From the NCBI GenBank assembly GCA_018672055.1, contig JABHGM010000001.1, forward strand, positions 432,679-496,678: 64,000 nucleotides of DNA, in the 5' to 3' direction. Positions 31,489 through 51,713 of the stretch are shown here, in pieces; positions within the stretch are counted from its first letter, which is position 1, and each line of letters begins with the position of its first letter. Both the position numbers and the translations under genes were made by a program. The stretch is from a bacterium. GTDB taxonomy: Bacteria > Patescibacteriota > Patescibacteriia > UBA1558 > UBA10009. The notes below the pieces were generated by a model. It saw only the letters and a list, made by a program, of their open reading frames with translations, ran no database searches and was not told where the DNA came from.

Positions 31489-32049
31489 ATGAGTTATCAT
31501 AATAAAACAAAGACCTCAAAACAAAAAATATTAACTACCTCACCTAAACGTGGTATCTCTTACTATCTATACATTTTTTCTAAGAGATTATTAAAACCTA
31601 TTAATATATTAAAGATCAAAGATAAATTAAAATCTTTGATTTTATTGTTGTTTAATAAAGTATTTCCTCCTGTACCTAAGAGATTATTAAAGTTAGAGAA
31701 GGTAAATAAAGTAAAGAAAAGTACCTCAAAAGAAATAGTCTTACCTCTTTACTTTGGCTGGGAATTAGTAATTAGAAGAATAGAGAATTGGCAACAACAT
31801 ATAATAGGTCCTTTTAAGAAGTATTGGCAGTATATGAGTGTTGTTATGGTATTTATTGTAATAATTGGTACATTTTTCTTAGTTAGAGATTCTGAACCAA
31901 TTAAAGCGGGTACTTACAGTTTTACTCAAACTGGCTGGACAGCCTCATCTACTAACACAGGGGCTCATACAACAGATCAATCTGGTTGGACTGATTATTG
32001 GAGTGAGTATAATGTAGCTACTTCATCAGGAATAACTATATCTAGATAA
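31489..32049 (+). CDS. Hypothetical membrane protein, first gene of the operon
   Basis: Basic N-terminus, one TM segment (VVMVFIVIIGTFFLV) and a Thr/Ser/Trp-rich C-terminus. Its stop overlaps the next ATG (TAATG). Confidence 0.45.
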   Translation: MSYHNKTKTSKQKILTTSPKRGISYYLYIFSKRLLKPINILKIKDKLKSLILLLFNKVFPPVPKRLLKLEKVNKVKKSTSKEIVLPLYFGWELVIRRIENWQQHIIGPFKKYWQYMSVVMVFIVIIGTFFLVRDSEPIKAGTYSFTQTGWTASSTNTGAHTTDQSGWTDYWSEYNVATSSGITISR

Positions 32050-35000
32050 TGAAATATTTAAAAAACAATTCAAAATTATTACTTTCTATATTATTTATAG
32101 TCGGTTTTACTTTTTTTAATATTCAAAGCATAAAAGCAGCTACAATTACCTGGGATGGTAGTGAATCAGTTACTTGGGCAACAGATGATAATTGGGTGGG
32201 TGGTACAGCTCCTGTATCAGGAGATGATGTTGTTATTAATGGAAGTTACGCTAGTGCTCCAACCCTAGATTTAACAGGTGGTTCTGCTACTTTTAACTCA
32301 GTAACTGTTGGTTCTTCTGCTGATTCTATACTTACTATATCTAACTCAACAACTACTAAGAAATTAATAACTACTGCTAATTTTACAATTGGTGCTAATG
32401 GTACTACTACTCATACAGCTAATGGTGGTGTTCAAACTCATAGTTTAGTAATTGATGTTGGTGGTGATGCTCTTATTACTGGATATATGGATGTTAATGG
32501 TAAAGGGCATAGTAGTGGTCAAGGGCCTGGAACTGGAGGAACTCAGGGTCAGTATTCAACGGACGGTGGTGCAAGTTATGGTGGCTTGGGTACAGCCGGG
32601 TATAGTGCTGTTGTAGCAGGATCAGTTTATGGTAGCTTGTCATCACCAGCTGAATTAGGTTCAGGTGGTGGAGGAAGTGGTAGTGGTTCAGGTGGTGGTG
32701 CTATAAAACTTAGTGTCACAGGAACATTGACAGTTAATGGATGGATCTTGTCTAGAGGCGGTGATGCAAGTCTTGCTACGGGTGATGCTGGGGGTTCAGG
32801 TGGTAGTATTTGGCTTGTCGCAGGAACTATTACCGGCTCTGGAACTATAGCTGCTAATGGTGGTGATGGTGGTATGGAAGGATATAATAGCAGAGATGGT
32901 GGAAGTGGTGGTGGTGGTCGTATTGCAATTTATTACACTACTAATACTCATAGTGGTACGGTTTCTGTTTATGGATCTTCTATGAATGCTGCACATATAT
33001 CAACCTCAGGTACGGTTTATGATAAAGATACAGATGATTCATATGGAAGTTTAACAATAAATAATAATGGTAATAATTCCATTTTAAGTACTCCATTAAT
33101 TGATGGAACATATAACTTTAAAGGATTTACAGCGTCAGGTTTAGCTGAAGTATTATTATCTGCTAGTGATATTATAAATACTGAGACAATAACTTTGTCA
33201 GCTTCTTCTACATTACTTAATACAGATGCAGCAATTACTGTAACTTCATCGTTTACTATATCTAATGGAGCTCAATATGAGCAAAGTGAAACCGCTTCTT
33301 TAACTGCAACAGCGGCTAGTTTTACAGCAGCGGCTGGTGCAGGACCTACTTTTTGGGATATTCATAAGGATGGGTCTACACCAACGTTTACTAGTGCAAC
33401 TATTGCATCTGGAGCGACTCTTACTCATTCGGCGCAGGCCACAGCACATACATATTCTTTGAAACTTGCTGTTTCTGGTAATATGACAGTTACAGGTGAT
33501 ATAAATGTTAATGATAGAGGGTATAGATATGGTCAAGGTCCTGGAACTGGAGGAACTAAGGGTCAGTATTCAACGGACGGGGGCGCAAGTTATGGCGGAT
33601 TGGGTACACTCGGGTATGGTATTGCAGCAGGAGTAGTTTATGGCTATCAATATGCGCCAATTGATATTGGTTCAGGTGGCGGTGGTAGTACTGGTAGTGG
33701 TTCAGGTGGCGGCGCTATTAAACTTATAGCTGGTGGAATATTTACAGTTAATGGATCTATTCTCTCTAGCGGTGGTGATGCAGGTTCAAGCACTGGTGAT
33801 GCCGGAGGTTCAGGTGGTAGTATTTGGATTGAGGGTGAAACTATTACCGGCTCTGGAACTATAGCTGCTAATGGCGGTGATGGTGGTGTAGAGGGATATT
33901 CTAGTAGAGATGGCGGTGGTGGCGGTGGTGGTCGTATGATTATCTATCATACATTAACTGAAAGTTTAGATGGAACGATTACAGTAACTGGTGGTAATGG
34001 GAATAATAATGGTATGGCTTCTGATGGCACTCTTAATAGATATGCTACTTACGGAGAACTTGTTTCTTCACCATATAACACAGAAGATTCAGCTGTTATC
34101 CTTGAAGGTATAGTTTGGATAGAAGATGCAACACTTCCTGCAACAACTACAGTAACTTTATATTTAAGAACAGGTTCAAATCAGGCTAATTTGCTTGCTG
34201 CTTCTTGGTCAGAGATAGCCTCATCTACTTCTAGTGGTCTTTTAACAACAGGTGCTACTAAGGATACAGGTACTGTAACTGTAGCTTCTACTACTCTTCC
34301 GGCTGCCATGAAAGATGGATCTGATGATCAATGGATACAATACAAGGTAGCCATAACTTCAACTACAGCTTCAACTCCTACAATTACTAGTATTCAAGTC
34401 TCATATATTTCTAATTCAGCTCCATCTGTTCAAGGAGTAACTGCTTCTCAAGACTCAGATGGTAATATTGATATAGTCTATGCAGTTCTAGACTCAGATA
34501 CTGATGAAGGTTCAGTTCAATCAGGGTATATAACTCCATCTTTTGAATATTCTTTAGATAATGGTTCAACGTGGACTACAATAACAACAGGTTTAAATTC
34601 AACAGCTACCAATAATGTAGTGGTAACTCAAGGTAGTTACGCGACGTACACGGCGACGTGGTTGCCGAGACAGCAGATAGACGGAAACTATGCAGCGCAA
34701 GGTATGATTAGAGCTATTGCTTCTGATGGAGAAGCTGCTAATGCTATTGGTTCATCAACATCTATTGCCTTTGCTTTAGATGCTAAGTCTCCTGCTGCCG
34801 GATCTCCAGCAATTGTAATTGTTGCAACTACTACTCCTGCAAGTTTAACAATATCTGCAACAGATGATACTTCAATGACTATGAAGATATCTCTAGATAG
34901 TGATTTTTCTAGCGGATCATTTGTATCATATAACTCAACTTCAACCGTATCTTTAGTTGATGATCCAGATACTGTATATATTCAATTTAAAGATGCTAAT

Positions 35001-35345
35001 TCAAATAGTACAACAGCTAGTATTTTAACTCCTAATACTCCAGCTAATGTTATGATTCAAGACACAACTAATGTAACAGCTGACCCTGATGAAAGTAGGT
35101 TGTTTATCGCTTGGTCTGTTGTTGATGATCCAGCTATTGGTTTTTCTAGATATGAAGTATATAGATCAACAGATCAATCAACATATACTTTAGTTGGTTC
35201 TAGTACAACCCGTACTCTAAACTATTATGGAGATAATTCAGTAGCAGCTTCTACTACTTACTATTACAAAGTAGCTACTCTAGATACTAATGGTAATACC
35301 TCATATATGTCATCTGCTGTATATGGTTTGGCTAATGGTATTTAA
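32049..35345 (+). CDS. Giant secreted Gly/Thr/Ser-rich repeat protein, N-terminal part (1,098 codons) ending at an in-frame TAA
   Basis: Signal peptide, a duplicated ~150-aa glycine-rich module (GQGPGTGG..GQYSTDGGASYGGLGT...GGGAIKL...GGSGGSIW...IAANGGDGG) and a terminal Fn3-like domain. Confidence 0.6.
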   Translation: MKYLKNNSKLLLSILFIVGFTFFNIQSIKAATITWDGSESVTWATDDNWVGGTAPVSGDDVVINGSYASAPTLDLTGGSATFNSVTVGSSADSILTISNSTTTKKLITTANFTIGANGTTTHTANGGVQTHSLVIDVGGDALITGYMDVNGKGHSSGQGPGTGGTQGQYSTDGGASYGGLGTAGYSAVVAGSVYGSLSSPAELGSGGGGSGSGSGGGAIKLSVTGTLTVNGWILSRGGDASLATGDAGGSGGSIWLVAGTITGSGTIAANGGDGGMEGYNSRDGGSGGGGRIAIYYTTNTHSGTVSVYGSSMNAAHISTSGTVYDKDTDDSYGSLTINNNGNNSILSTPLIDGTYNFKGFTASGLAEVLLSASDIINTETITLSASSTLLNTDAAITVTSSFTISNGAQYEQSETASLTATAASFTAAAGAGPTFWDIHKDGSTPTFTSATIASGATLTHSAQATAHTYSLKLAVSGNMTVTGDINVNDRGYRYGQGPGTGGTKGQYSTDGGASYGGLGTLGYGIAAGVVYGYQYAPIDIGSGGGGSTGSGSGGGAIKLIAGGIFTVNGSILSSGGDAGSSTGDAGGSGGSIWIEGETITGSGTIAANGGDGGVEGYSSRDGGGGGGGRMIIYHTLTESLDGTITVTGGNGNNNGMASDGTLNRYATYGELVSSPYNTEDSAVILEGIVWIEDATLPATTTVTLYLRTGSNQANLLAASWSEIASSTSSGLLTTGATKDTGTVTVASTTLPAAMKDGSDDQWIQYKVAITSTTASTPTITSIQVSYISNSAPSVQGVTASQDSDGNIDIVYAVLDSDTDEGSVQSGYITPSFEYSLDNGSTWTTITTGLNSTATNNVVVTQGSYATYTATWLPRQQIDGNYAAQGMIRAIASDGEAANAIGSSTSIAFALDAKSPAAGSPAIVIVATTTPASLTISATDDTSMTMKISLDSDFSSGSFVSYNSTSTVSLVDDPDTVYIQFKDANSNSTTASILTPNTPANVMIQDTTNVTADPDESRLFIAWSVVDDPAIGFSRYEVYRSTDQSTYTLVGSSTTRTLNYYGDNSVAASTTYYYKVATLDTNGNTSYMSSAVYGLANGI
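32480..33960 (+). repeat. Intragenic duplication: ~460-bp glycine-rich module present twice (about 32480-32950 and 33500-33960)
   Basis: By eye the two copies are roughly 85% identical at DNA level, for example ggtcagtattcaacggacggtggtgcaagttatgg versus ggtcagtattcaacggacgggggcgcaagttatgg. Confidence 0.7.
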
Positions 35346-42846: not shown

Positions 42847-44667
42847 ATGAAACAAAAGTATCAAGAAATAGCTATACTAGATTTTGGCTCACAATATACT
42901 CATTTAATTGCTAGACGTTTTAGAAATATGGGGATTCTGGCTAAACTATACCCAGCTGATACTGATTTAAGTAAAATTAGTAATATAGTGGGTATTGTTT
43001 TATCTGGTTCGCCAGCTTCCATAAGTGATAATAAGTATCAAGTGAATGAGAATCTTTTTGATTTAAGTATTCCCATACTTGGACTTTGTTATGGCCATCA
43101 GTTTATAGCTGATCATTTTGGAGGTGTAGTTGAAGCACATAAAGAACAAAGTGAATTTGGTAGAGCTAAGTTAGAATTAGTAGATAGTCCTTTATTTAAA
43201 AATATAGAGAATAATGAAGAAGTTTGGATGAGTCATGGTGATAGTGTAATTAAAGTACCAGCTGGTTTTAAAGTAATTGGTAAGACTAAGAGTTGTGATA
43301 TAGCTGCTATGTCATCTGAAGAAAAAAATATTTATTCTCTTCAATTTCATCCAGAAGTAACACATACTAAAAAAGGTATGGAGATTTTAGAAAATTTTGC
43401 TTTTGAAATATGTCAGGCTAAGAAAGATTGGAATATTGAAGATTGGCAAGTAGAAATGGTTAAAGAAATACAAGATACAGTTAAAGATAAAAAAGTATTT
43501 CTTTTAGTTAGTGGTGGTGTTGATTCTACGGTTTCATTTGCTCTTTTAGAAAAAGCTTTAGGTAAGGATAGAGTATTTGGTTTGCATATTGATAATGGTT
43601 TAATGAGAAAGAATGAGGTAAATGAAGTTCAAAGTTCTTTACGAGATGCTGGATTTCAAAATTTAGAAATATATGATGCTTCTAATGAATTTTTAAATGC
43701 TTTAGAAGGTATTTATGAACCTGAAGCTAAAAGAAAAATTATTGGTAACCTATTTTTAGATATTCAAGATAAAGTAGCTACCAAACTAAAATTAAATCCA
43801 GATGAATGGATTTTAGGGCAGGGTACTATATATCCGGATACCATAGAAACAGGAGGTACTAAGAATGCTGAAACTATTAAAACGCATCATAACAGAGTAC
43901 CTAGAGTTCAAGAATTAATAGAGGAGGGTAAAATAATTGAACCCATTAAAGACTTATATAAAGATGAAGTAAGAAGTTTAGGAGAATATTTAGGCTTGCC
44001 TAGTAAACTTGTTTGGCGTCATCCTTTTCCAGGTCCAGGATTAGCTATCAGAGCTCTTTGTTTAGATAAAGTTAATGAAGATGACTTAAGTAATTTAACT
44101 AATAATATTAAAAAAAGTTTTCCTAACTTAAATTTAAATGTTTTACCTTTAAAAAGCGTTGGAGTACAAGGGGATTCTAGAACTTACGCACATCCTGCAG
44201 TAATTAGTAAAGATATGTTAGAATTTAACTTTAAACAATTTATTGATTGTATTAAAGAAGCTCCTAAGTTAACTAATAAGTTTAAAGAAATAAATAGAGT
44301 TATTTTAAGAGTTGATAGTAATGAGTATTTATTAAATGATGCTAAATTAATTAAATCAGATATTAATAAAAAAAGATTAGATTTACTTAGAGAAGTTGAT
44401 TGCATAGTTCAGACATTTATCTTAGAACATGGCCTAGAGCACGATATTTGGCAGTTTCCAGTTGTTTTAGTCCCTTATGGGGTAAATGATATGGAAAGCA
44501 TTATATTAAGGCCTGTTACTTCCTTAGAGGCTATGACTGCTAAATCATACCCACTACCTATTAATATATTGGAAGAATTAACTAAGAAGATATCTAAAAT
44601 ATCTAATATTTCCTTTATATTTTATGATTTAACTAATAAGCCGCCTGGTACTATAGAATGGGAGTAA
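42847..44667 (+). CDS. guaA: GMP synthase (glutamine-hydrolysing), long form
   Basis: GATase (GLCYGHQ), PP-loop SGGVDSTV and a C-terminal dimerisation domain. At 606 aa it is longer than the typical ~520 aa. Confidence 0.85.
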   Translation: MKQKYQEIAILDFGSQYTHLIARRFRNMGILAKLYPADTDLSKISNIVGIVLSGSPASISDNKYQVNENLFDLSIPILGLCYGHQFIADHFGGVVEAHKEQSEFGRAKLELVDSPLFKNIENNEEVWMSHGDSVIKVPAGFKVIGKTKSCDIAAMSSEEKNIYSLQFHPEVTHTKKGMEILENFAFEICQAKKDWNIEDWQVEMVKEIQDTVKDKKVFLLVSGGVDSTVSFALLEKALGKDRVFGLHIDNGLMRKNEVNEVQSSLRDAGFQNLEIYDASNEFLNALEGIYEPEAKRKIIGNLFLDIQDKVATKLKLNPDEWILGQGTIYPDTIETGGTKNAETIKTHHNRVPRVQELIEEGKIIEPIKDLYKDEVRSLGEYLGLPSKLVWRHPFPGPGLAIRALCLDKVNEDDLSNLTNNIKKSFPNLNLNVLPLKSVGVQGDSRTYAHPAVISKDMLEFNFKQFIDCIKEAPKLTNKFKEINRVILRVDSNEYLLNDAKLIKSDINKKRLDLLREVDCIVQTFILEHGLEHDIWQFPVVLVPYGVNDMESIILRPVTSLEAMTAKSYPLPINILEELTKKISKISNISFIFYDLTNKPPGTIEWE

Positions 44668-44726
44668 TCTTTACAGAATAGGTATATTTTGATAATGTGT
44701 TATATTCATTAAGTTCTTTAACAAAA

Positions 44727-44777
44727 GTAATCATAGCCAAAAGTTACTTAATTTAGGTGGTTTTTGGCTATGATTAC
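44727..44777. repeat. Perfect 16-bp inverted repeat with a 19-nt spacer
   Basis: gtaatcatagccaaaa (44727-44742) pairs with ttttggctatgattac (44762-44777). Confidence 0.8.
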
Positions 44778-44871
44778 ATGGTGTAATTAGTTAGCAATCC
44801 AAAGTAGGTAGGCTCTATGTTTGATTTTAAGTAATTAAATAGGGAGTAAGCCAAAAATAAAGGAGCCAAAA

Positions 44872-46065
44872 ATGGCACCAAGAAAAAATGAATGGGTCAA
44901 GGCCTTAGGAACAATGTTTGAAATTTTTAAAGCTTTGATTAATGAAGTTATATCTCAAGGTGGTAATGAAAATTATTTTCGAGTAATATTGAAATACCCG
45001 GAAGCTAAAAGTTTAATTGCTAAAAAAGTAATTGAAGTTTGGCAGAAATTTGAACTTCTTAAGTTTATCGGTAAAGTAAAAATTAAGTCTACCGAGGGAT
45101 TTACTGCAAAGTATTGTTTTGTAGCGGATATTACTGATAGTGCTATTGTCAAGATATCTAATATAAAGACATTTATTAGACAGTTTTCGTCCAAGGTTGA
45201 ACCAGCGGTTAAGGAAGTTGAATTAAGTTATTATGAATTAACTGATAATGCTACAGATGAACAAATTATTAAGAATTTAGGTGGCAAAGCTAAGGCTAAG
45301 ATAACTCTTTATCAGCTCTGGGAGCTCTTATTACTCCAGCCTAATGGAGAGGAAGGAGCTTTGTTAGTCGATCGTTACAATTTACTTTTTATCGAAGATG
45401 CTAATAATGTAATTTACCTTATTCGATTATACTGGGATAGTTATGGCTGGGATTTGGACGCTATTTCAATGAATTCAAATAGTTATAACAAGTATCCCAT
45501 TATTTCTGGCAGTCCTTATGAAAATTCTAATTACCTTAATACGTATCGCATTTTTTCTGCAAATCCTTGTCACTTAGATGATGGAAATAGACTAGGTCAA
45601 TTACCACGGTATTTAGGAGCATCTCAGAAAGGTAAAGATAAGATTATAATTAACGTTAATCGATCATTTGTTCATAAAAGTATTGATGGGAGATTAGCTT
45701 ATCCTGAGTTTAATGAATCTGGTCCCAGTGAATATGATCTTCATAGTTTAACTGCGTGTCGCTTGGGCGAATTGGATGATGAGAATATGCCTCCATTGAA
45801 ATTTTTAAGATTGTTACACTTGAATGGATACCTAGAAAGATCTCTAAATATTTCTGATGCCGAAGCTATAATTGAAAATGAAATTGATTTTTTTGAACAA
45901 GATGTAGTTTTATGGAGATCAGCTAGAGATAAACCTGGACAGTGTGATGTGCCAGTTTTGATTTCTCATGAAGGCAAGTTAAAAATAAAATGGTTTCCTA
46001 TTACTCGAGAAATATTCAATAATACACTATTTTTATTTCCTAAAGAAGCAATGACTTCTAATTAA
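44872..46065 (+). CDS. Orphan hypothetical protein, 397 aa, with no recognisable domain
   Basis: AAGGAG SD 7 nt upstream. Its codon usage is GC-richer than the neighbours (cgc, cgg, ccc, gcg codons). It is bounded by the IR above and the terminator below. Confidence 0.55.
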   Translation: MAPRKNEWVKALGTMFEIFKALINEVISQGGNENYFRVILKYPEAKSLIAKKVIEVWQKFELLKFIGKVKIKSTEGFTAKYCFVADITDSAIVKISNIKTFIRQFSSKVEPAVKEVELSYYELTDNATDEQIIKNLGGKAKAKITLYQLWELLLLQPNGEEGALLVDRYNLLFIEDANNVIYLIRLYWDSYGWDLDAISMNSNSYNKYPIISGSPYENSNYLNTYRIFSANPCHLDDGNRLGQLPRYLGASQKGKDKIIINVNRSFVHKSIDGRLAYPEFNESGPSEYDLHSLTACRLGELDDENMPPLKFLRLLHLNGYLERSLNISDAEAIIENEIDFFEQDVVLWRSARDKPGQCDVPVLISHEGKLKIKWFPITREIFNNTLFLFPKEAMTSN

Positions 46066-46089
46066 CATTTTGTTGTAAAAACTCAATGT

Positions 46090-46123
46090 AAGCCGCATTT
46101 CAGATATGATTTGCGGTTTTTTT
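46090..46123 (+). terminator. Rho-independent terminator
   Basis: aagccgca/tgcggttt is an 8-bp stem with one G-U pair, followed by T7. Confidence 0.6.
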
Positions 46124-46232
46124 ATCCACAAAATACGATATTTATCAGTTAATTGCTTTCTCATATATATTGTGGTAAAATATACCTGTTTTCAGGTGGG
46201 AAAAGATTATATAATTAATGAAATATAATAGC

Positions 46233-47090
46233 ATGGCCATAATTGTTGACGGTAAAAAAATTGCCTCTACTATACTTAATGATTTAAAAACAAGGGTGGA
46301 TGCCATCAAATCAAAAGGGGGTAATGCCTCTCTAGCTGTTGTCTTGGTAGGTGATGATAAACCTTCTCAAACATATGTTAGAAAAAAAGAAGAAGCTGCA
46401 AAAGCCATAGGTGTGCAGTTTTTTAAATTGAAATTATCCGGGAGTATTAGTAAGGATGAATTAATAAGTGAGATTAAAAAAATACAAAGCAAAGAAGATT
46501 TAACTGGTTTGATCGTTCAATTACCATTACCTAAGCATTTAAGAGATGATACTCGAGAAATAGTTAATCATATTGAATCTAATATTGATGTTGATTGTTT
46601 AAATTATTTATCCTTAGGTAAGGTGCTAATGGGAACTAATCTGCTATTACCTCCAACTCCTTCTGCTATTATGGAAATACTTAAATATCACGATGTCGAT
46701 TTAGTTGGTAAGAATGTAGTTTTAATAGGTAGAGGTAATTTAATAGGTAAACCTTTATCTGCTATGTTAATGCATTATCCAGTAACTGTAACTGTTTGTG
46801 GTAGTGAATGTCATGATTTAAATTACTTTACAACTAAAGCAGATATCATTGTAACAGGTGTTGGTAAGTATAATATATTAAGTGGAGACATGGTTAAAGA
46901 TGGCGTAGCTGTGGTTGATGCCGGAGTATGCTTTGAGAATCAAAAAATGTGTGGTGATGTAGATTTTGATTCAGTTAAAGAGAAAGCCTCAGTTATTACT
47001 CCAGTACCTGGTGGAGTTGGTCCAATTACTGTATCTAAGCTTTTAGAAAATACTGTCATTCAGGCAGAAAATATATTAAATAATAAATAA
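46233..47090 (+). CDS. folD: Bifunctional methylene-THF dehydrogenase/cyclohydrolase
   Basis: MAIIVDGKKIA..., YVRKK, GRGNLIGKP and PGGVGP motifs. The start was moved to M6. Confidence 0.85.
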   Translation: MAIIVDGKKIASTILNDLKTRVDAIKSKGGNASLAVVLVGDDKPSQTYVRKKEEAAKAIGVQFFKLKLSGSISKDELISEIKKIQSKEDLTGLIVQLPLPKHLRDDTREIVNHIESNIDVDCLNYLSLGKVLMGTNLLLPPTPSAIMEILKYHDVDLVGKNVVLIGRGNLIGKPLSAMLMHYPVTVTVCGSECHDLNYFTTKADIIVTGVGKYNILSGDMVKDGVAVVDAGVCFENQKMCGDVDFDSVKEKASVITPVPGGVGPITVSKLLENTVIQAENILNNK

Positions 47091-48437: not shown

Positions 48438-48671
48438 TTAGGCTAGAGTAATATCTGAAGTTAGGTTATGGAATTGTTTGGTAATTGGGCTATCTTTTCT
48501 AATTTTAGAACTGAATTTAACTTTCTTATTATAGTTATGCTTCAGTATTTCTAGACTATCTGGTTTATCATTTAATTGACTTTTATGAATATAAATTAAT
48601 TTCTTATTTTCAATTGATTCAAAGAAATAATAATCATCATCAGATAATCCAAGATAAGTATATTTTTTCAT
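48438..48671 (-). CDS. Hypothetical small protein, 77 aa
   Basis: Only an ORF with a weak SD, lying between purA and purL on the opposite strand. Confidence 0.3.
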   Translation of the reverse strand: MKKYTYLGLSDDDYYFFESIENKKLIYIHKSQLNDKPDSLEILKHNYNKKVKFSSKIRKDSPITKQFHNLTSDITLA

Positions 48672-51155: not shown

Positions 51156-51713
51156 CTATTCAGGTGGCATAAACGATGAATATACTTCATCTTTTTCTCC
51201 TATAAGAATATTATCCGCATAAAAAGAAGTAAATTCAGTTAATGATTCGTTCGTTTTTATCTTAACGGTCATACCTGGCTTAAATATAAATGATAGAAGT
51301 GACATGGTTTCTTGTAAAGAATGCTTTTTAAAGTATTCAGAGATTTTTGGAACTTTATCATTATCAAGTATTTTAATGTATTTTACCTCTTCTTGATCTT
51401 CTACGATCAAGACTGTTCCATATTCTATATTTTCCACTAGGAAAATACATTCAGGAGTATTATCAAAAATTGTTTCACATTCGTGTTTGATGCTTTGTCC
51501 ATTATAGATAGTATTTCCCATTATTATCAGGCCATCATCGTCATTTTGATCAGTATAGCAAAGAATTTTTCCTACAATATCATCACTAAATATGATAATA
51601 TTGAAATCCGGGTCATTGTGGTAGAAACCCAAAAATTGGGTTTCTGCAAAGTTATCTTTGGAACATCCAACCATTAAAAACATGGCAATAATCAGAAGTA
51701 TCATCTTCCTCAT
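51156..51713 (-). CDS. Lipoprotein, hypothetical
   Basis: Signal peptide with lipobox LMVGCS and an AAGGAG SD. It lies on the opposite strand inside the pur cluster. Confidence 0.5.
   Translation of the reverse strand: MRKMILLIIAMFLMVGCSKDNFAETQFLGFYHNDPDFNIIIFSDDIVGKILCYTDQNDDDGLIIMGNTIYNGQSIKHECETIFDNTPECIFLVENIEYGTVLIVEDQEEVKYIKILDNDKVPKISEYFKKHSLQETMSLLSFIFKPGMTVKIKTNESLTEFTSFYADNILIGEKDEVYSSFMPPE

What the first reader, a model, noticed from the sequence alone, without database searches (positions are those of the whole stretch)
44668..46217. Orphan 397-aa gene inserted between guaA and folD, framed by a 16-bp perfect inverted repeat and a terminator
The guaA-folD-purA neighbourhood is otherwise a purine/one-carbon block. 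Into it is inserted a single gene with several contrasts to its neighbours:
- A strong AAGGAG SD, where its neighbours have none.
- Visibly GC-richer codon usage (cgc, cgg, ccc, gcg).
- No recognisable domain.
- No signal peptide or TM segment.

Upstream lies a perfect 16-bp inverted repeat (44727-44777) and downstream a clean rho-independent terminator (46090-46123). This looks like a self-contained, horizontally acquired single-gene cassette of unknown function. Its insertion into a nucleotide-metabolism operon would fit a defence or nucleotide-targeting function, but that is speculation.
Basis: partly seen in the sequence, partly recalled or inferred. Interest (0 to 1): 0.6.

Follow-up and report, generated by a model that had tools for sequence, protein, structure and literature searches.

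The report
Orphaned relic of a hypermutation-target gene
The "orphan" gene between guaA and folD is a diverged, now unvarying relative of proteins that tiny Patescibacteria normally hypermutate with a diversity-generating retroelement; here it has no retroelement nearby, carries a unique extra tail, and shows no sign of being a defence or nucleotide-targeting cassette.

Summary
The described features are real: a 397-aa ORF (44872-46065, +), an AAGGAG ribosome-binding site, a perfect 16-bp inverted repeat upstream and a hairpin plus T-run terminator downstream.

The gene is not domain-less in the evolutionary sense. An exhaustive phmmer search ties residues ~1-202 (up to 232 by MAFFT) to a family of more than 1000 protein clusters. 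These are ~200-240-aa hypothetical proteins, named where named as Patescibacteria (CPR), with no Pfam model.

I sampled nine family loci. Six lie next to a reverse transcriptase (five also next to bAvd). All six have a template repeat matching the gene's 3' end with mismatches almost only at template adenines. The family is therefore a set of DGR variable (target) proteins.

In the window gene this machinery is missing or broken:
- No RT, Avd or template repeat lies within the 64 kb.
- The variable-region equivalent carries a 15-aa insertion.
- A unique 165-aa extension follows it.
- The protein is a single allele on at least 75 contigs.

The closest syntenic relative has no such gene between guaA and folD.

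Best reading: a lineage-specific, compositionally almost ameliorated, orphaned DGR-target homologue with a frozen binding surface. The defence or nucleotide-targeting idea has no support. Interest is modest.

The parts
44727..44777 (+). Perfect 16-bp inverted repeat, extending to a 24-bp RNA hairpin with a 3-nt loop. It lies 60 nt after the guaA stop and 95 nt before the orf397 start. No T-run follows it on the + strand.
   Evidence: -29.3 kcal/mol, z = -7.5. Four G-U pairs in the upper stem work only on the + strand RNA. It is a single copy in the window. Rfam gave only sub-threshold miRNA-like noise.
44860..44865 (+). Shine-Dalgarno AAGGAG, 6 nt upstream of the ATG.
   Evidence: for the sequence; only 4 of 45 long ORFs in the window have such a motif; all sampled family genes have an SD-like purine-rich motif upstream.
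44872..46065 (+). orf397 coding sequence (397 aa plus stop).
   Evidence: The start is confirmed by alignment of MAPRKNEW... with family N-termini MARKKSEF... from residue 1. The identical protein is found on at least 75 contigs.
44872..45567 (+). Domain homologous to the Patescibacteria DGR variable-protein family (aa 1-232).
   Evidence: 1057 hits; 119.9 bits against a family HMM built without this gene, aligned over aa 33-202. MAFFT carries the alignment on to YRIFSAN, matching the family's RVFSRN. AF2 with a 116-sequence alignment gave pLDDT 83 and pTM 0.72.
45406..45564 (+). Equivalent of the DGR variable region (aa 179-231), here a single fixed allele.
   Evidence: scaffold residues are retained (W188, G-W, A, S, F-S-x-N). 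The family's hypervariable AAY-templated columns (entropy 2.9 bits against 0.75) hold R, Y, D, D, D, I, S, Y, L and Y here. No template-repeat-like match exists anywhere in the window. The region is identical in all cluster members.
45478..45522 (+). Lineage-specific 15-aa insertion (NSYNKYPIISGSPYE) inside the variable-region equivalent.
   Evidence: AF2 confidence drops to about 50 across aa 201-220. The family HMM alignment stops at aa 202.
45568..46062 (+). Unique 165-aa C-terminal extension with no detectable relatives.
   Evidence: only fragments of the same protein match aa 200-397. There is no Pfam hit. It is not a degenerate second copy of the domain: hhalign probability 0.3%, no hmmsearch hit and Smith-Waterman z = -0.2.
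46090..46125 (+). Intrinsic terminator: hairpin followed by a run of 7 T.
   Evidence: -14.7 kcal/mol, z = -4.3.
44677..44690 (.). Left arm of a 14-nt imperfect inverted repeat (13/14) whose partner is at 46177-46190. The pair brackets the whole insert. It is marginal and probably chance; the right arm overlaps a putative folD extended -10 (TGGTAAAAT).
   Evidence: pair I7; 6 of 300 shuffles reach 13/14.

Best explanation
orf397 is a real, separately expressed gene. Its first ~200-232 residues are a very diverged member of a large Patescibacteria family of DGR variable (target) proteins.

In typical members, a neighbouring reverse transcriptase and Avd copy a template repeat and rewrite about 10 Asn-templated codons at the extreme C-terminus. 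This diversifies a binding surface.

The window gene has become an orphan:
- No RT, Avd or template repeat is present in the 64 kb.
- The former variable region is interrupted by a 15-aa insertion.
- It has lost the GC-rich 3' end of typical variable regions.
- It is no longer C-terminal, because a unique 165-aa extension follows it.
- It exists as one allele everywhere the organism has been sequenced.

The gene entered, or survived in, the variable slot between guaA and folD in this lineage only. Since then it has drifted almost completely to the host's 30% GC. It keeps its SD and some GC-rich codons as traces of its origin.

Inferred, not shown: it now works as a cytoplasmic, fixed-specificity binding protein, with the frozen ex-variable surface recognising a ligand and the new C-terminal domain adding an unknown activity.

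The upstream hairpin is most simply an RNA element at the guaA 3' end or the orf397 5' UTR. The downstream hairpin plus T-run terminates orf397 ahead of folD's own promoter.
For: Homology:
- 1057 hits with E<=1e-3, covering residues 1-~200.
- 119.9 bits against a family HMM built without this gene.
- Alignment runs from Met1.

The family is a DGR target family:
- 6 of 9 sampled loci have RVT_1 within about 1 kb downstream, and 5 of those also have bAvd.
- All 6 have a template/variable repeat pair of 113-126 nt at 84-90% identity.
- The mismatches at template adenines are 16/17, 15/15, 13/15, 12/12, 17/19 and 15/19.
- Across 116 members, columns templated by AAY codons have 2.94 bits of entropy, against 0.75 for the other variable-region columns.

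Orphan status:
- tblastn with RT and Avd finds nothing in the window.
- Nothing resembling a template repeat matches nt 45350-45650.
- The 90% cluster has three sequences that differ only at contig-end C-termini. The exact protein is on 75 contigs and in 147 collection blocks.

Lineage-specific position: L004 shares the synteny but lacks the gene.

Composition:
- GC3 z is about +2, with rare GC-rich codons and an SD in an almost SD-less genome.
- Family genes are 0.41-0.58 GC in loci of 0.35-0.44 GC, and all have an SD-like purine-rich motif upstream.

Literature: CPR clade-2 DGR targets typically lack any recognisable TM or conserved domain (PMC8144416).
Against: - Only 64 kb of a roughly 1-Mb genome could be searched. 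DGRs can act on remote targets (PMC8144416).
- My one metagenome scan for a template repeat was mis-designed and is uninformative.
- The alignment of the last ~15 residues of the variable-region equivalent rests on MAFFT, not on the HMM.
- No expression or selection data exist, and with zero sequence variation dN/dS cannot be computed.
- The binding function is inferred from what DGR targets do in general. No member of this family has been characterised.
- The predicted fold matched nothing significant in PDB or BFVD, so even the C-type-lectin expectation is untested.
Confidence: 0.72

Rival explanations
1. orf397 is still a working remote DGR target. A DGR (RT, Avd and template repeat) elsewhere in the ~1-Mb genome diversifies nt ~45406-45564 in trans.
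For: - 3 of 9 sampled family members (L015, L018, L140) also lack an RT within 5 kb. Remote targets are known (PMC8144416).
- The scaffold residues of the variable region are retained.
- Only 6% of the genome was visible.
Against: - There is one variable-region allele on at least 75 contigs from many samples, and no variants in a 15-billion-protein collection.
- The variable-region equivalent is AT-rich and lacks the GC-rich 3' end seen in every confirmed variable region.
- No hairpin follows it.
- It is interrupted by 15 aa and followed by 165 coding residues.
- The gene's GC has decayed to host level, whereas the three other RT-less members remain GC-rich.
Confidence: 0.07
2. One reading: a horizontally acquired defence or nucleotide-targeting cassette, placed in the purine operon because it acts on nucleotides.
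For: - The gene is absent in the syntenic relative.
- Its SD and codon bias look foreign.
- A second family member (L018) also sits in a nucleotide-metabolism cluster, between tmk and dut.
- Some family loci lie beside R-M or toxin genes (L014, L019).
Against: - There are no PADLOC, Pfam, NCBIfam or PHROGs hits.
- No catalytic motif or enzymatic domain is present.
- The homologous family is defined by DGR targeting, not by defence-island context. Most sampled neighbours are housekeeping genes such as aaRS, ribosomal proteins and TatD.
- The family is absent from phage, plasmid and IMG/VR viral collections.
Confidence: 0.05
3. A non-functional relic: a decayed DGR target whose stop codon was lost, so that it reads through into junk sequence.
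For: - It is extremely diverged from the family: 120 bits against 253-297 for members.
- The C-terminal 165 aa have no relatives at all.
- AF2 gives no confident structure for that part.
- One other member (P0104) has a junk-like read-through tail.
Against: - A 397-codon ORF in a 30% GC genome is very unlikely to stay open by chance. By my estimate about 8% of random codons are stops, so (0.92)^165 is roughly 1e-6 for the tail alone.
- A perfect SD and a clean terminator are retained.
- The composition of the tail (L, E, D, I, N, S) is that of an ordinary soluble protein.
- The N-domain still folds confidently in AF2.
Confidence: 0.12
4. The family, and so orf397, is an immunity-protein-like (SUKH/Imm) binder that neutralises toxins. 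DGR diversification in relatives would serve to track polymorphic toxins.
For: Faint, sub-threshold Pfam hits recur:
- Imm31 in 8 of 116 members, best E = 0.019.
- Syd/SUKH-2 in one member, E = 0.0058.
- Imm70 in P0006, E = 0.25.
The proteins are small, cytoplasmic and alpha+beta.
Against: - All these hits are far below the gathering thresholds, and members are homologous, so a shared chance hit is expected.
- Foldseek against PDB listed no SUKH or Imm structure among the top matches.
- No toxin genes are adjacent in the window.
Confidence: 0.04

Closest known systems
Variable (target) proteins of Patescibacteria/CPR 'clade 2' diversity-generating retroelements (Paul et al. 2017, cited from reference lists only; Roux et al. 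2021, PMC8144416)
   Same: - Sequence homology over aa 1-~202(232).
- The same N-terminal helical region and alpha/beta core.
- Retained variable-region scaffold residues.
- No signal peptide, TM segment or Pfam domain, as reported for CPR targets.
- An SD-bearing stand-alone gene set among housekeeping genes.
   Different: - No RT, Avd or template repeat within 64 kb.
- The variable-region equivalent is invariant, AT-rich, split by a 15-aa insertion and not C-terminal.
- An extra 165-aa domain is present.
- GC is at host level rather than 5-23 points above it.
Classical C-type-lectin-fold DGR variable proteins (Bordetella phage Mtd, Treponema TvpA, Thermus TaqVP)
   Same: - A C-terminal ~38-aa variable region in the family, with Asn (AAY) templated sites interleaved with invariant W/G/A/F scaffold residues.
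- The predicted order beta-alpha-alpha-beta-beta-beta-beta for aa 116-229 is compatible with a CLec-like core (from my own knowledge of the fold).
- One weak Foldseek hit to a human C-type lectin (3whd_A, E = 0.3).
   Different: - No significant sequence or structure match.
Remote or orphan DGR targets (variable regions far from their RT)
   Same: The gene sits alone, without the retroelement, as do 3 of 9 sampled family members (L015, L018, L140).
   Different: Those three keep the family's length, the C-terminal position of the variable region and high GC. L140 and L018 also keep a GC-rich hairpin just downstream. orf397 keeps none of these.

Membership tests
DGR variable (target) protein | Sequence homology to proteins that carry a demonstrated variable region | tested here: met
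   (119.9 bits, aa 33-202). Homologues in L011, L014, L016, L019, L141 and L142 have template/variable repeat pairs.
DGR variable (target) protein | A cognate template repeat matching the variable region, with mismatches at template adenines | tested here: not met
   No match to nt 45350-45650 above chance anywhere in the 64-kb window.
DGR variable (target) protein | A DGR reverse transcriptase (and usually Avd) in the locus | tested here: not met
   tblastn of two family-linked RTs and one Avd against the window gave only noise, E >= 0.27. The called genes within +-10 kb show no RVT_1 or bAvd.
DGR variable (target) protein | Variable region at the extreme C-terminus of the protein | tested here: not met
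   The variable-region equivalent ends at aa 231 of 397, and a 165-aa extension follows.
DGR variable (target) protein | Hypervariability at AAY-templated codons between strains or samples | tested here: not met
   One allele on at least 75 contigs. Cluster variants differ only at contig-end C-termini. The family as a whole shows 2.94 against 0.75 bits.
DGR variable (target) protein | GC-rich IMH at the 3' end of the variable region, with a hairpin/cruciform just downstream | tested here: not met
   The 3' end is CGCATTTTTTCTGCAAATCC, against GGTCTTCTCTCGCAACTC-type ends in the family. No inverted repeat lies at 45565-45650.
DGR variable (target) protein | C-type lectin (or Ig-like) fold displaying the variable region | tested here: inconclusive
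Known anti-phage defence systems (PADLOC-DB) | Match to any defence-protein profile | tested here: not met
   0 families at E <= 10.
Integrative mobile cassette (att- or TIR-bounded) | Flanking direct repeats or terminal inverted repeats beyond chance, plus a recombinase | tested here: not met
   - The best direct 12-mer is 10/12, reached by 274 of 300 shuffles.
- The flanking inverted repeat is 13/14, reached by 6 of 300 shuffles, which is marginal.
- The 16-bp inverted repeat is a single local hairpin, not repeated elsewhere.
- No integrase or transposase lies within +-10 kb.
Intrinsic (rho-independent) terminator | A stable GC-containing hairpin immediately followed by a T-run | tested here: met
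   46090-46119 plus T7, -14.7 kcal/mol, z = -4.3.

The most novel reading that the evidence does not exclude
The ~220-aa Patescibacteria family uncovered here has more than 1000 clusters, no Pfam model, and a confident AF2 model with no PDB match. It may therefore be a DGR-diversifiable scaffold outside the known C-type-lectin and Ig classes. On this reading, orf397 is a natural 'domestication' of that scaffold: one variant was frozen and fused to a brand-new 165-aa domain, giving a fixed-specificity recognition protein in a streamlined marine CPR genome.
Probability: 0.15. Interest if true: 0.6.

Novelty: new variant of a known kind. Interest (0 to 1): 0.33.

Why it matters
The result turns an apparent ORFan into an interpretable object: a fossil of targeted hypermutation.

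If the reading holds, it gives a concrete example of what happens to a DGR target once the retroelement is gone:
- The variable surface is frozen.
- An insertion appears in the variable region.
- A new C-terminal domain is gained.
- The composition ameliorates to the host's.

It also flags a very large, un-named Patescibacteria protein family, with a clear DGR signature and a good predicted structure, that is missing from Pfam, NCBIfam and PDB. For annotation, 'hypothetical protein' could become 'DGR variable-protein-like'.

It does not reveal a new defence system, and it says nothing special about purine metabolism.

Tried and rejected
1. Curated libraries on the whole protein (Pfam, NCBIfam, PHROGs, PADLOC, PDB sequences) gave nothing. 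The word-indexed protein search returned only the protein itself.
2. AF2 on the single sequence was useless, with pLDDT 30.
4. Template-repeat search in metagenomes: I encoded every variable-region base as 'itself or A', so poly-A runs matched. All 3373 matches were at least 90% A.
5. C-terminal extension as a degenerate second copy of the domain (tandem copies exist in P0006, P0008, P0053 and P0133): rejected. hhalign probability was 0.3%, there was no hmmsearch hit, and the Smith-Waterman score was no better than shuffles.
6. C-terminal extension as an ex-RT, ex-Avd or ex-spacer sequence: tblastn found no similarity.
7. Upstream inverted repeat as a known RNA: only sub-threshold miRNA or snoRNA noise. 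As a repeated att-like site: it is a single copy in the window.
8. Phage or plasmid origin: no tblastn hit in 50,697 phage records or 72,556 plasmid records, and no family member in IMG/VR.
9. Profile search of the family against PDB sequences gave only a chance hit at E = 0.76.
10. Paul et al. 2017 (PMC5436926) could not be read.

Full report
**Observation**

The window has a 397-aa ORF at 44872-46065 on the + strand. It lies between a 606-aa GMP synthase (42847-44667) and folD (46218-47090), inside a guaB/guaA/folD/purA/purL/purM/purC block.

- AAGGAG lies at 44860-44865, 6 nt before the ATG.
- The upstream inverted repeat is real. Its perfect 16-nt arms are at 44727-44742 and 44762-44777.
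- As RNA the repeat extends to a 24-bp hairpin of -29.3 kcal/mol (z = -7.5). Four of its pairs are G-U and form only on the + strand.
- Downstream, 46090-46119 folds at -14.7 kcal/mol (z = -4.3) and is followed by seven T.

The composition claim is only half right.
- Gene GC is 0.322 against a window gene mean of 0.300 (sd 0.025).
- GC3 is 0.224 against 0.152 (sd 0.035).
- CGC, CGG, CGA, GCG and CCC are 4-17-fold over-represented, on very small counts.
- The SD contrast is striking. Only 4 of 45 long ORFs in the window have an AAGGA-type motif within 20 nt of the start.

**What the protein is**

Pfam, NCBIfam, PHROGs, PADLOC and PDB sequences give nothing. The word-indexed search of 5.8 billion proteins returns only the protein itself, on 75 contigs.

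The exhaustive phmmer search of 1.84 billion cluster representatives gives a different picture.
- 1057 proteins match at E <= 1e-3.
- All match residues ~1-200. Nearly all are 160-280 aa long.
- Residues 200-397 match only fragments of the same protein.

MAFFT aligns the window protein with these from Met1 (MAPRKNEW against MARKKSEF) through to YRIFSAN against the family's terminal RVFSRN(S). The window protein has a 15-residue insertion at aa 203-217. An HMM built from 115 family members without the window sequence scores it 119.9 bits over aa 33-202. True members score 253-297 bits, so it is a distant outlier.

Where sources name the family members, they are Wolfebacteria, Nealsonbacteria or 'Patescibacteria group', apart from one MAG labelled Spirochaetia, and always 'hypothetical protein' with no Pfam domain.

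**What the family is**

I looked up nine members on their contigs.

- In six (L011, L014, L016, L019, L141, L142) an RVT_1 reverse transcriptase lies 0.4-1 kb downstream. In five of these (all but L019) a bAvd gene or an unannotated gap lies in between.
- In all six, the last 113-126 nt of the family gene are repeated between the gene and the RT at 84-90% identity.
- The differences fall almost only where the downstream copy has A: 16/17, 15/15, 13/15, 12/12, 17/19 and 15/19. This is the defining signature of a diversity-generating retroelement (template repeat to variable region).
- Across 116 aligned members, the columns templated by AAC/AAT codons have a mean entropy of 2.94 bits. The other variable-region columns have 0.75 bits; W, G-W, A, S, P, W, G and F-S-R-N are nearly invariant.
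- Three members (L015, L018, L140) have no RT or template repeat within 5 kb.

[quoted passage not shown] The family is absent from phage and plasmid records and from IMG/VR contigs.

**How orf397 differs**

- No RT or Avd is encoded anywhere in the 64 kb.
- Nothing in the window resembles a template for nt 45350-45650.
- The variable-region equivalent (aa 179-231, nt 45406-45564) keeps much of the scaffold (W, G-W, A, S, F-S-x-N). It has lost the third W and the G. It is split by the 15-aa insertion, and it is AT-rich at its 3' end, where real variable regions have a GC-rich IMH.
- No hairpin follows it.
- It is followed by 165 further codons with no relatives and no Pfam hit.
- That tail has no detectable similarity to the family domain.
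- The 90% identity cluster holds three sequences that differ only at contig-end C-termini. The exact protein is indexed in 147 blocks of the collection. A target being diversified would appear as many variable-region alleles; here there is one.
- All nine sampled family genes are far more GC-rich than their surroundings (0.41-0.58 against 0.35-0.44). orf397 is at host level apart from a residual GC3 excess.

**Is it an insertion?**

The only syntenic relative in the species-level genome collection is L004, with guaA 62% identical. It keeps dagK-guaB-guaA-folD-purA-purL. Between guaA and folD it has a terminator and an unrelated 82-aa minus-strand ORF with a strong SD. More distant relatives share no synteny and have no family member in the fetched loci.

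The gene is therefore lineage-specific at this position, and the slot is variable.

- No flanking direct repeats exceed chance.
- A 13/14 inverted repeat that brackets the insert (44677-44690 and 46177-46190) is reached by 2% of shuffles.
- No recombinase is nearby.

The 16-bp inverted repeat is a single local hairpin, not an att-like repeat. Other long intergenic hairpins exist in the window. It is most simply an RNA 3'-end or leader structure.

**Structure**

With the 116-sequence alignment, AF2 gives a confident model of aa 1-240: pLDDT 83 and pTM 0.72.
- It has a three-helix N-terminal bundle and an alpha/beta core.
- Confidence is low only across the insertion.
- The order beta-alpha-alpha-beta-beta-beta-beta for aa 116-229 is compatible with a C-type-lectin-like core. 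This is my own reading, not a test.

Foldseek finds nothing significant in PDB or BFVD. The best lectin hit has E = 0.3. The more sensitive libraries were unavailable. The C-terminal 165 aa remain unmodelled.

**Mechanism**

Shown:
- Homology to DGR targets.
- Absence of DGR parts in the window.
- Invariance of the allele.
- The changed architecture.
- The lineage-specific position.

Inferred:
- An ancestor was a normal DGR target, acquired with or without its retroelement.
- The retroelement link was lost.
- One variant of the binding surface was fixed.
- The ORF gained a new C-terminal domain.
- The gene ameliorated to 30% GC while keeping its SD.

It probably acts as a soluble, fixed-specificity binding protein. 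No TM segment or signal peptide is present.

Rivals are a still-active remote target, a dead relic, a defence or nucleotide-targeting cassette, and an immunity-like binder. Each is weighed separately in the rival-explanations section of this report. None is favoured by the data.

**Verdict**

The sequence features are real. The 'orphan with no relatives' and 'defence/nucleotide-targeting' readings are not supported. 'Self-contained, lineage-specific, foreign-looking gene' is supported.

It is a new variant of a known kind: an orphaned, extended DGR variable-protein homologue. Interest is modest. The more notable by-product is the large, un-annotated DGR-target family itself.

Noticed in passing
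window, all long ORFs (e.g. 42847, 46218, 47098): The genome is almost free of Shine-Dalgarno motifs. Only 4 of 45 ORFs of at least 150 aa have AAGGA within 20 nt upstream: 25600, 28640, 44872 and 51156(-).
   Followed up: partly
window 51156-51713 (-): A 185-aa ORF with no Pfam hit lies between purL and the purM-like gene. It has AAAGGAG upstream and the highest GC3 in the window (0.269). It looks like a second foreign-type insertion in the purine block. In another assembly (L002) it is called as only 121 aa.
   Followed up: partly
window 48438-48671 (-): A 77-aa minus-strand ORF lies between purA and purL. Its only hit is a sub-threshold DUF7452 match, E = 0.024.
   Followed up: partly
window 32049-35345 (+): A 1098-aa ORF has GC 0.391, far above the gene mean of 0.300, but ordinary GC3 (0.151). 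It has no significant Pfam domain. An 799-aa fn3/PhoD_N-like protein follows it, so it may be a surface protein.
   Followed up: no
L011, L014, L015, L016, L018, L019, L140, L141, L142 (family genes): Every sampled DGR-target gene of this family is much more GC-rich than its host locus (for example 0.58 against 0.35 in L011). All nine have an SD-like purine-rich motif upstream. Whether this reflects avoidance of adenine outside templated sites or mobility of the cassette is open.
   Followed up: partly
L018 5001-5714: An RT-less family member (P0207) lies between thymidylate kinase and dUTPase in a thyA/dcd/dCMP-deaminase/SHMT cluster. This is a second case of the family sitting inside a nucleotide-metabolism block. 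With n = 2 it may be coincidence.
   Followed up: no
L004 9898-10146 (-): In the closest syntenic relative, the guaA-folD slot holds an unrelated 82-aa ORF with a strong SD (AAAGGAGGG) and no Pfam hit. The slot therefore seems to accept small foreign genes.
   Followed up: partly
L019 2544-4046 and L014 1-5200: Two DGR loci sit beside defence-type genes.
- L019 has a second, 500-aa RVT_1 protein flanked by HARE-HTH, PDDEXK and a type I restriction subunit.
- L014 has DpnII R-M, HigB and Peptidase_M78 genes.
   Followed up: no
P0006, P0008, P0053, P0133 (family proteins): Multi-copy architectures exist. P0006 has five tandem copies in 926 aa. P0008 has two copies behind an apparent signal peptide (MRRLRICRLRVAIVLTLAFTAGANA). 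Some members are therefore probably secreted.
   Followed up: no
alignment A2 (family): Faint Pfam hits to immunity-protein families recur: Imm31 in 8 of 116 members (best E = 0.019) and Syd/SUKH-2 in one (E = 0.0058). All are sub-threshold, but this is a lead for fold assignment.
   Followed up: no
window 42847-44667; L001 13875-16225: guaA here is 606 aa, longer than the ~520 aa typical of bacteria (my own knowledge); the relatives share this length. purL is intact in the window (783 aa) but split into 661 + 119 aa in the JGI contig L001, by a frameshift or an assembly error.
   Followed up: no
window 46142-46181: A putative promoter for folD itself (TTATCA-18-TATATT, and TGGTAAAAT as an extended -10) lies just after the orf397 terminator. 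It overlaps the right arm of the marginal flanking inverted repeat.
   Followed up: no
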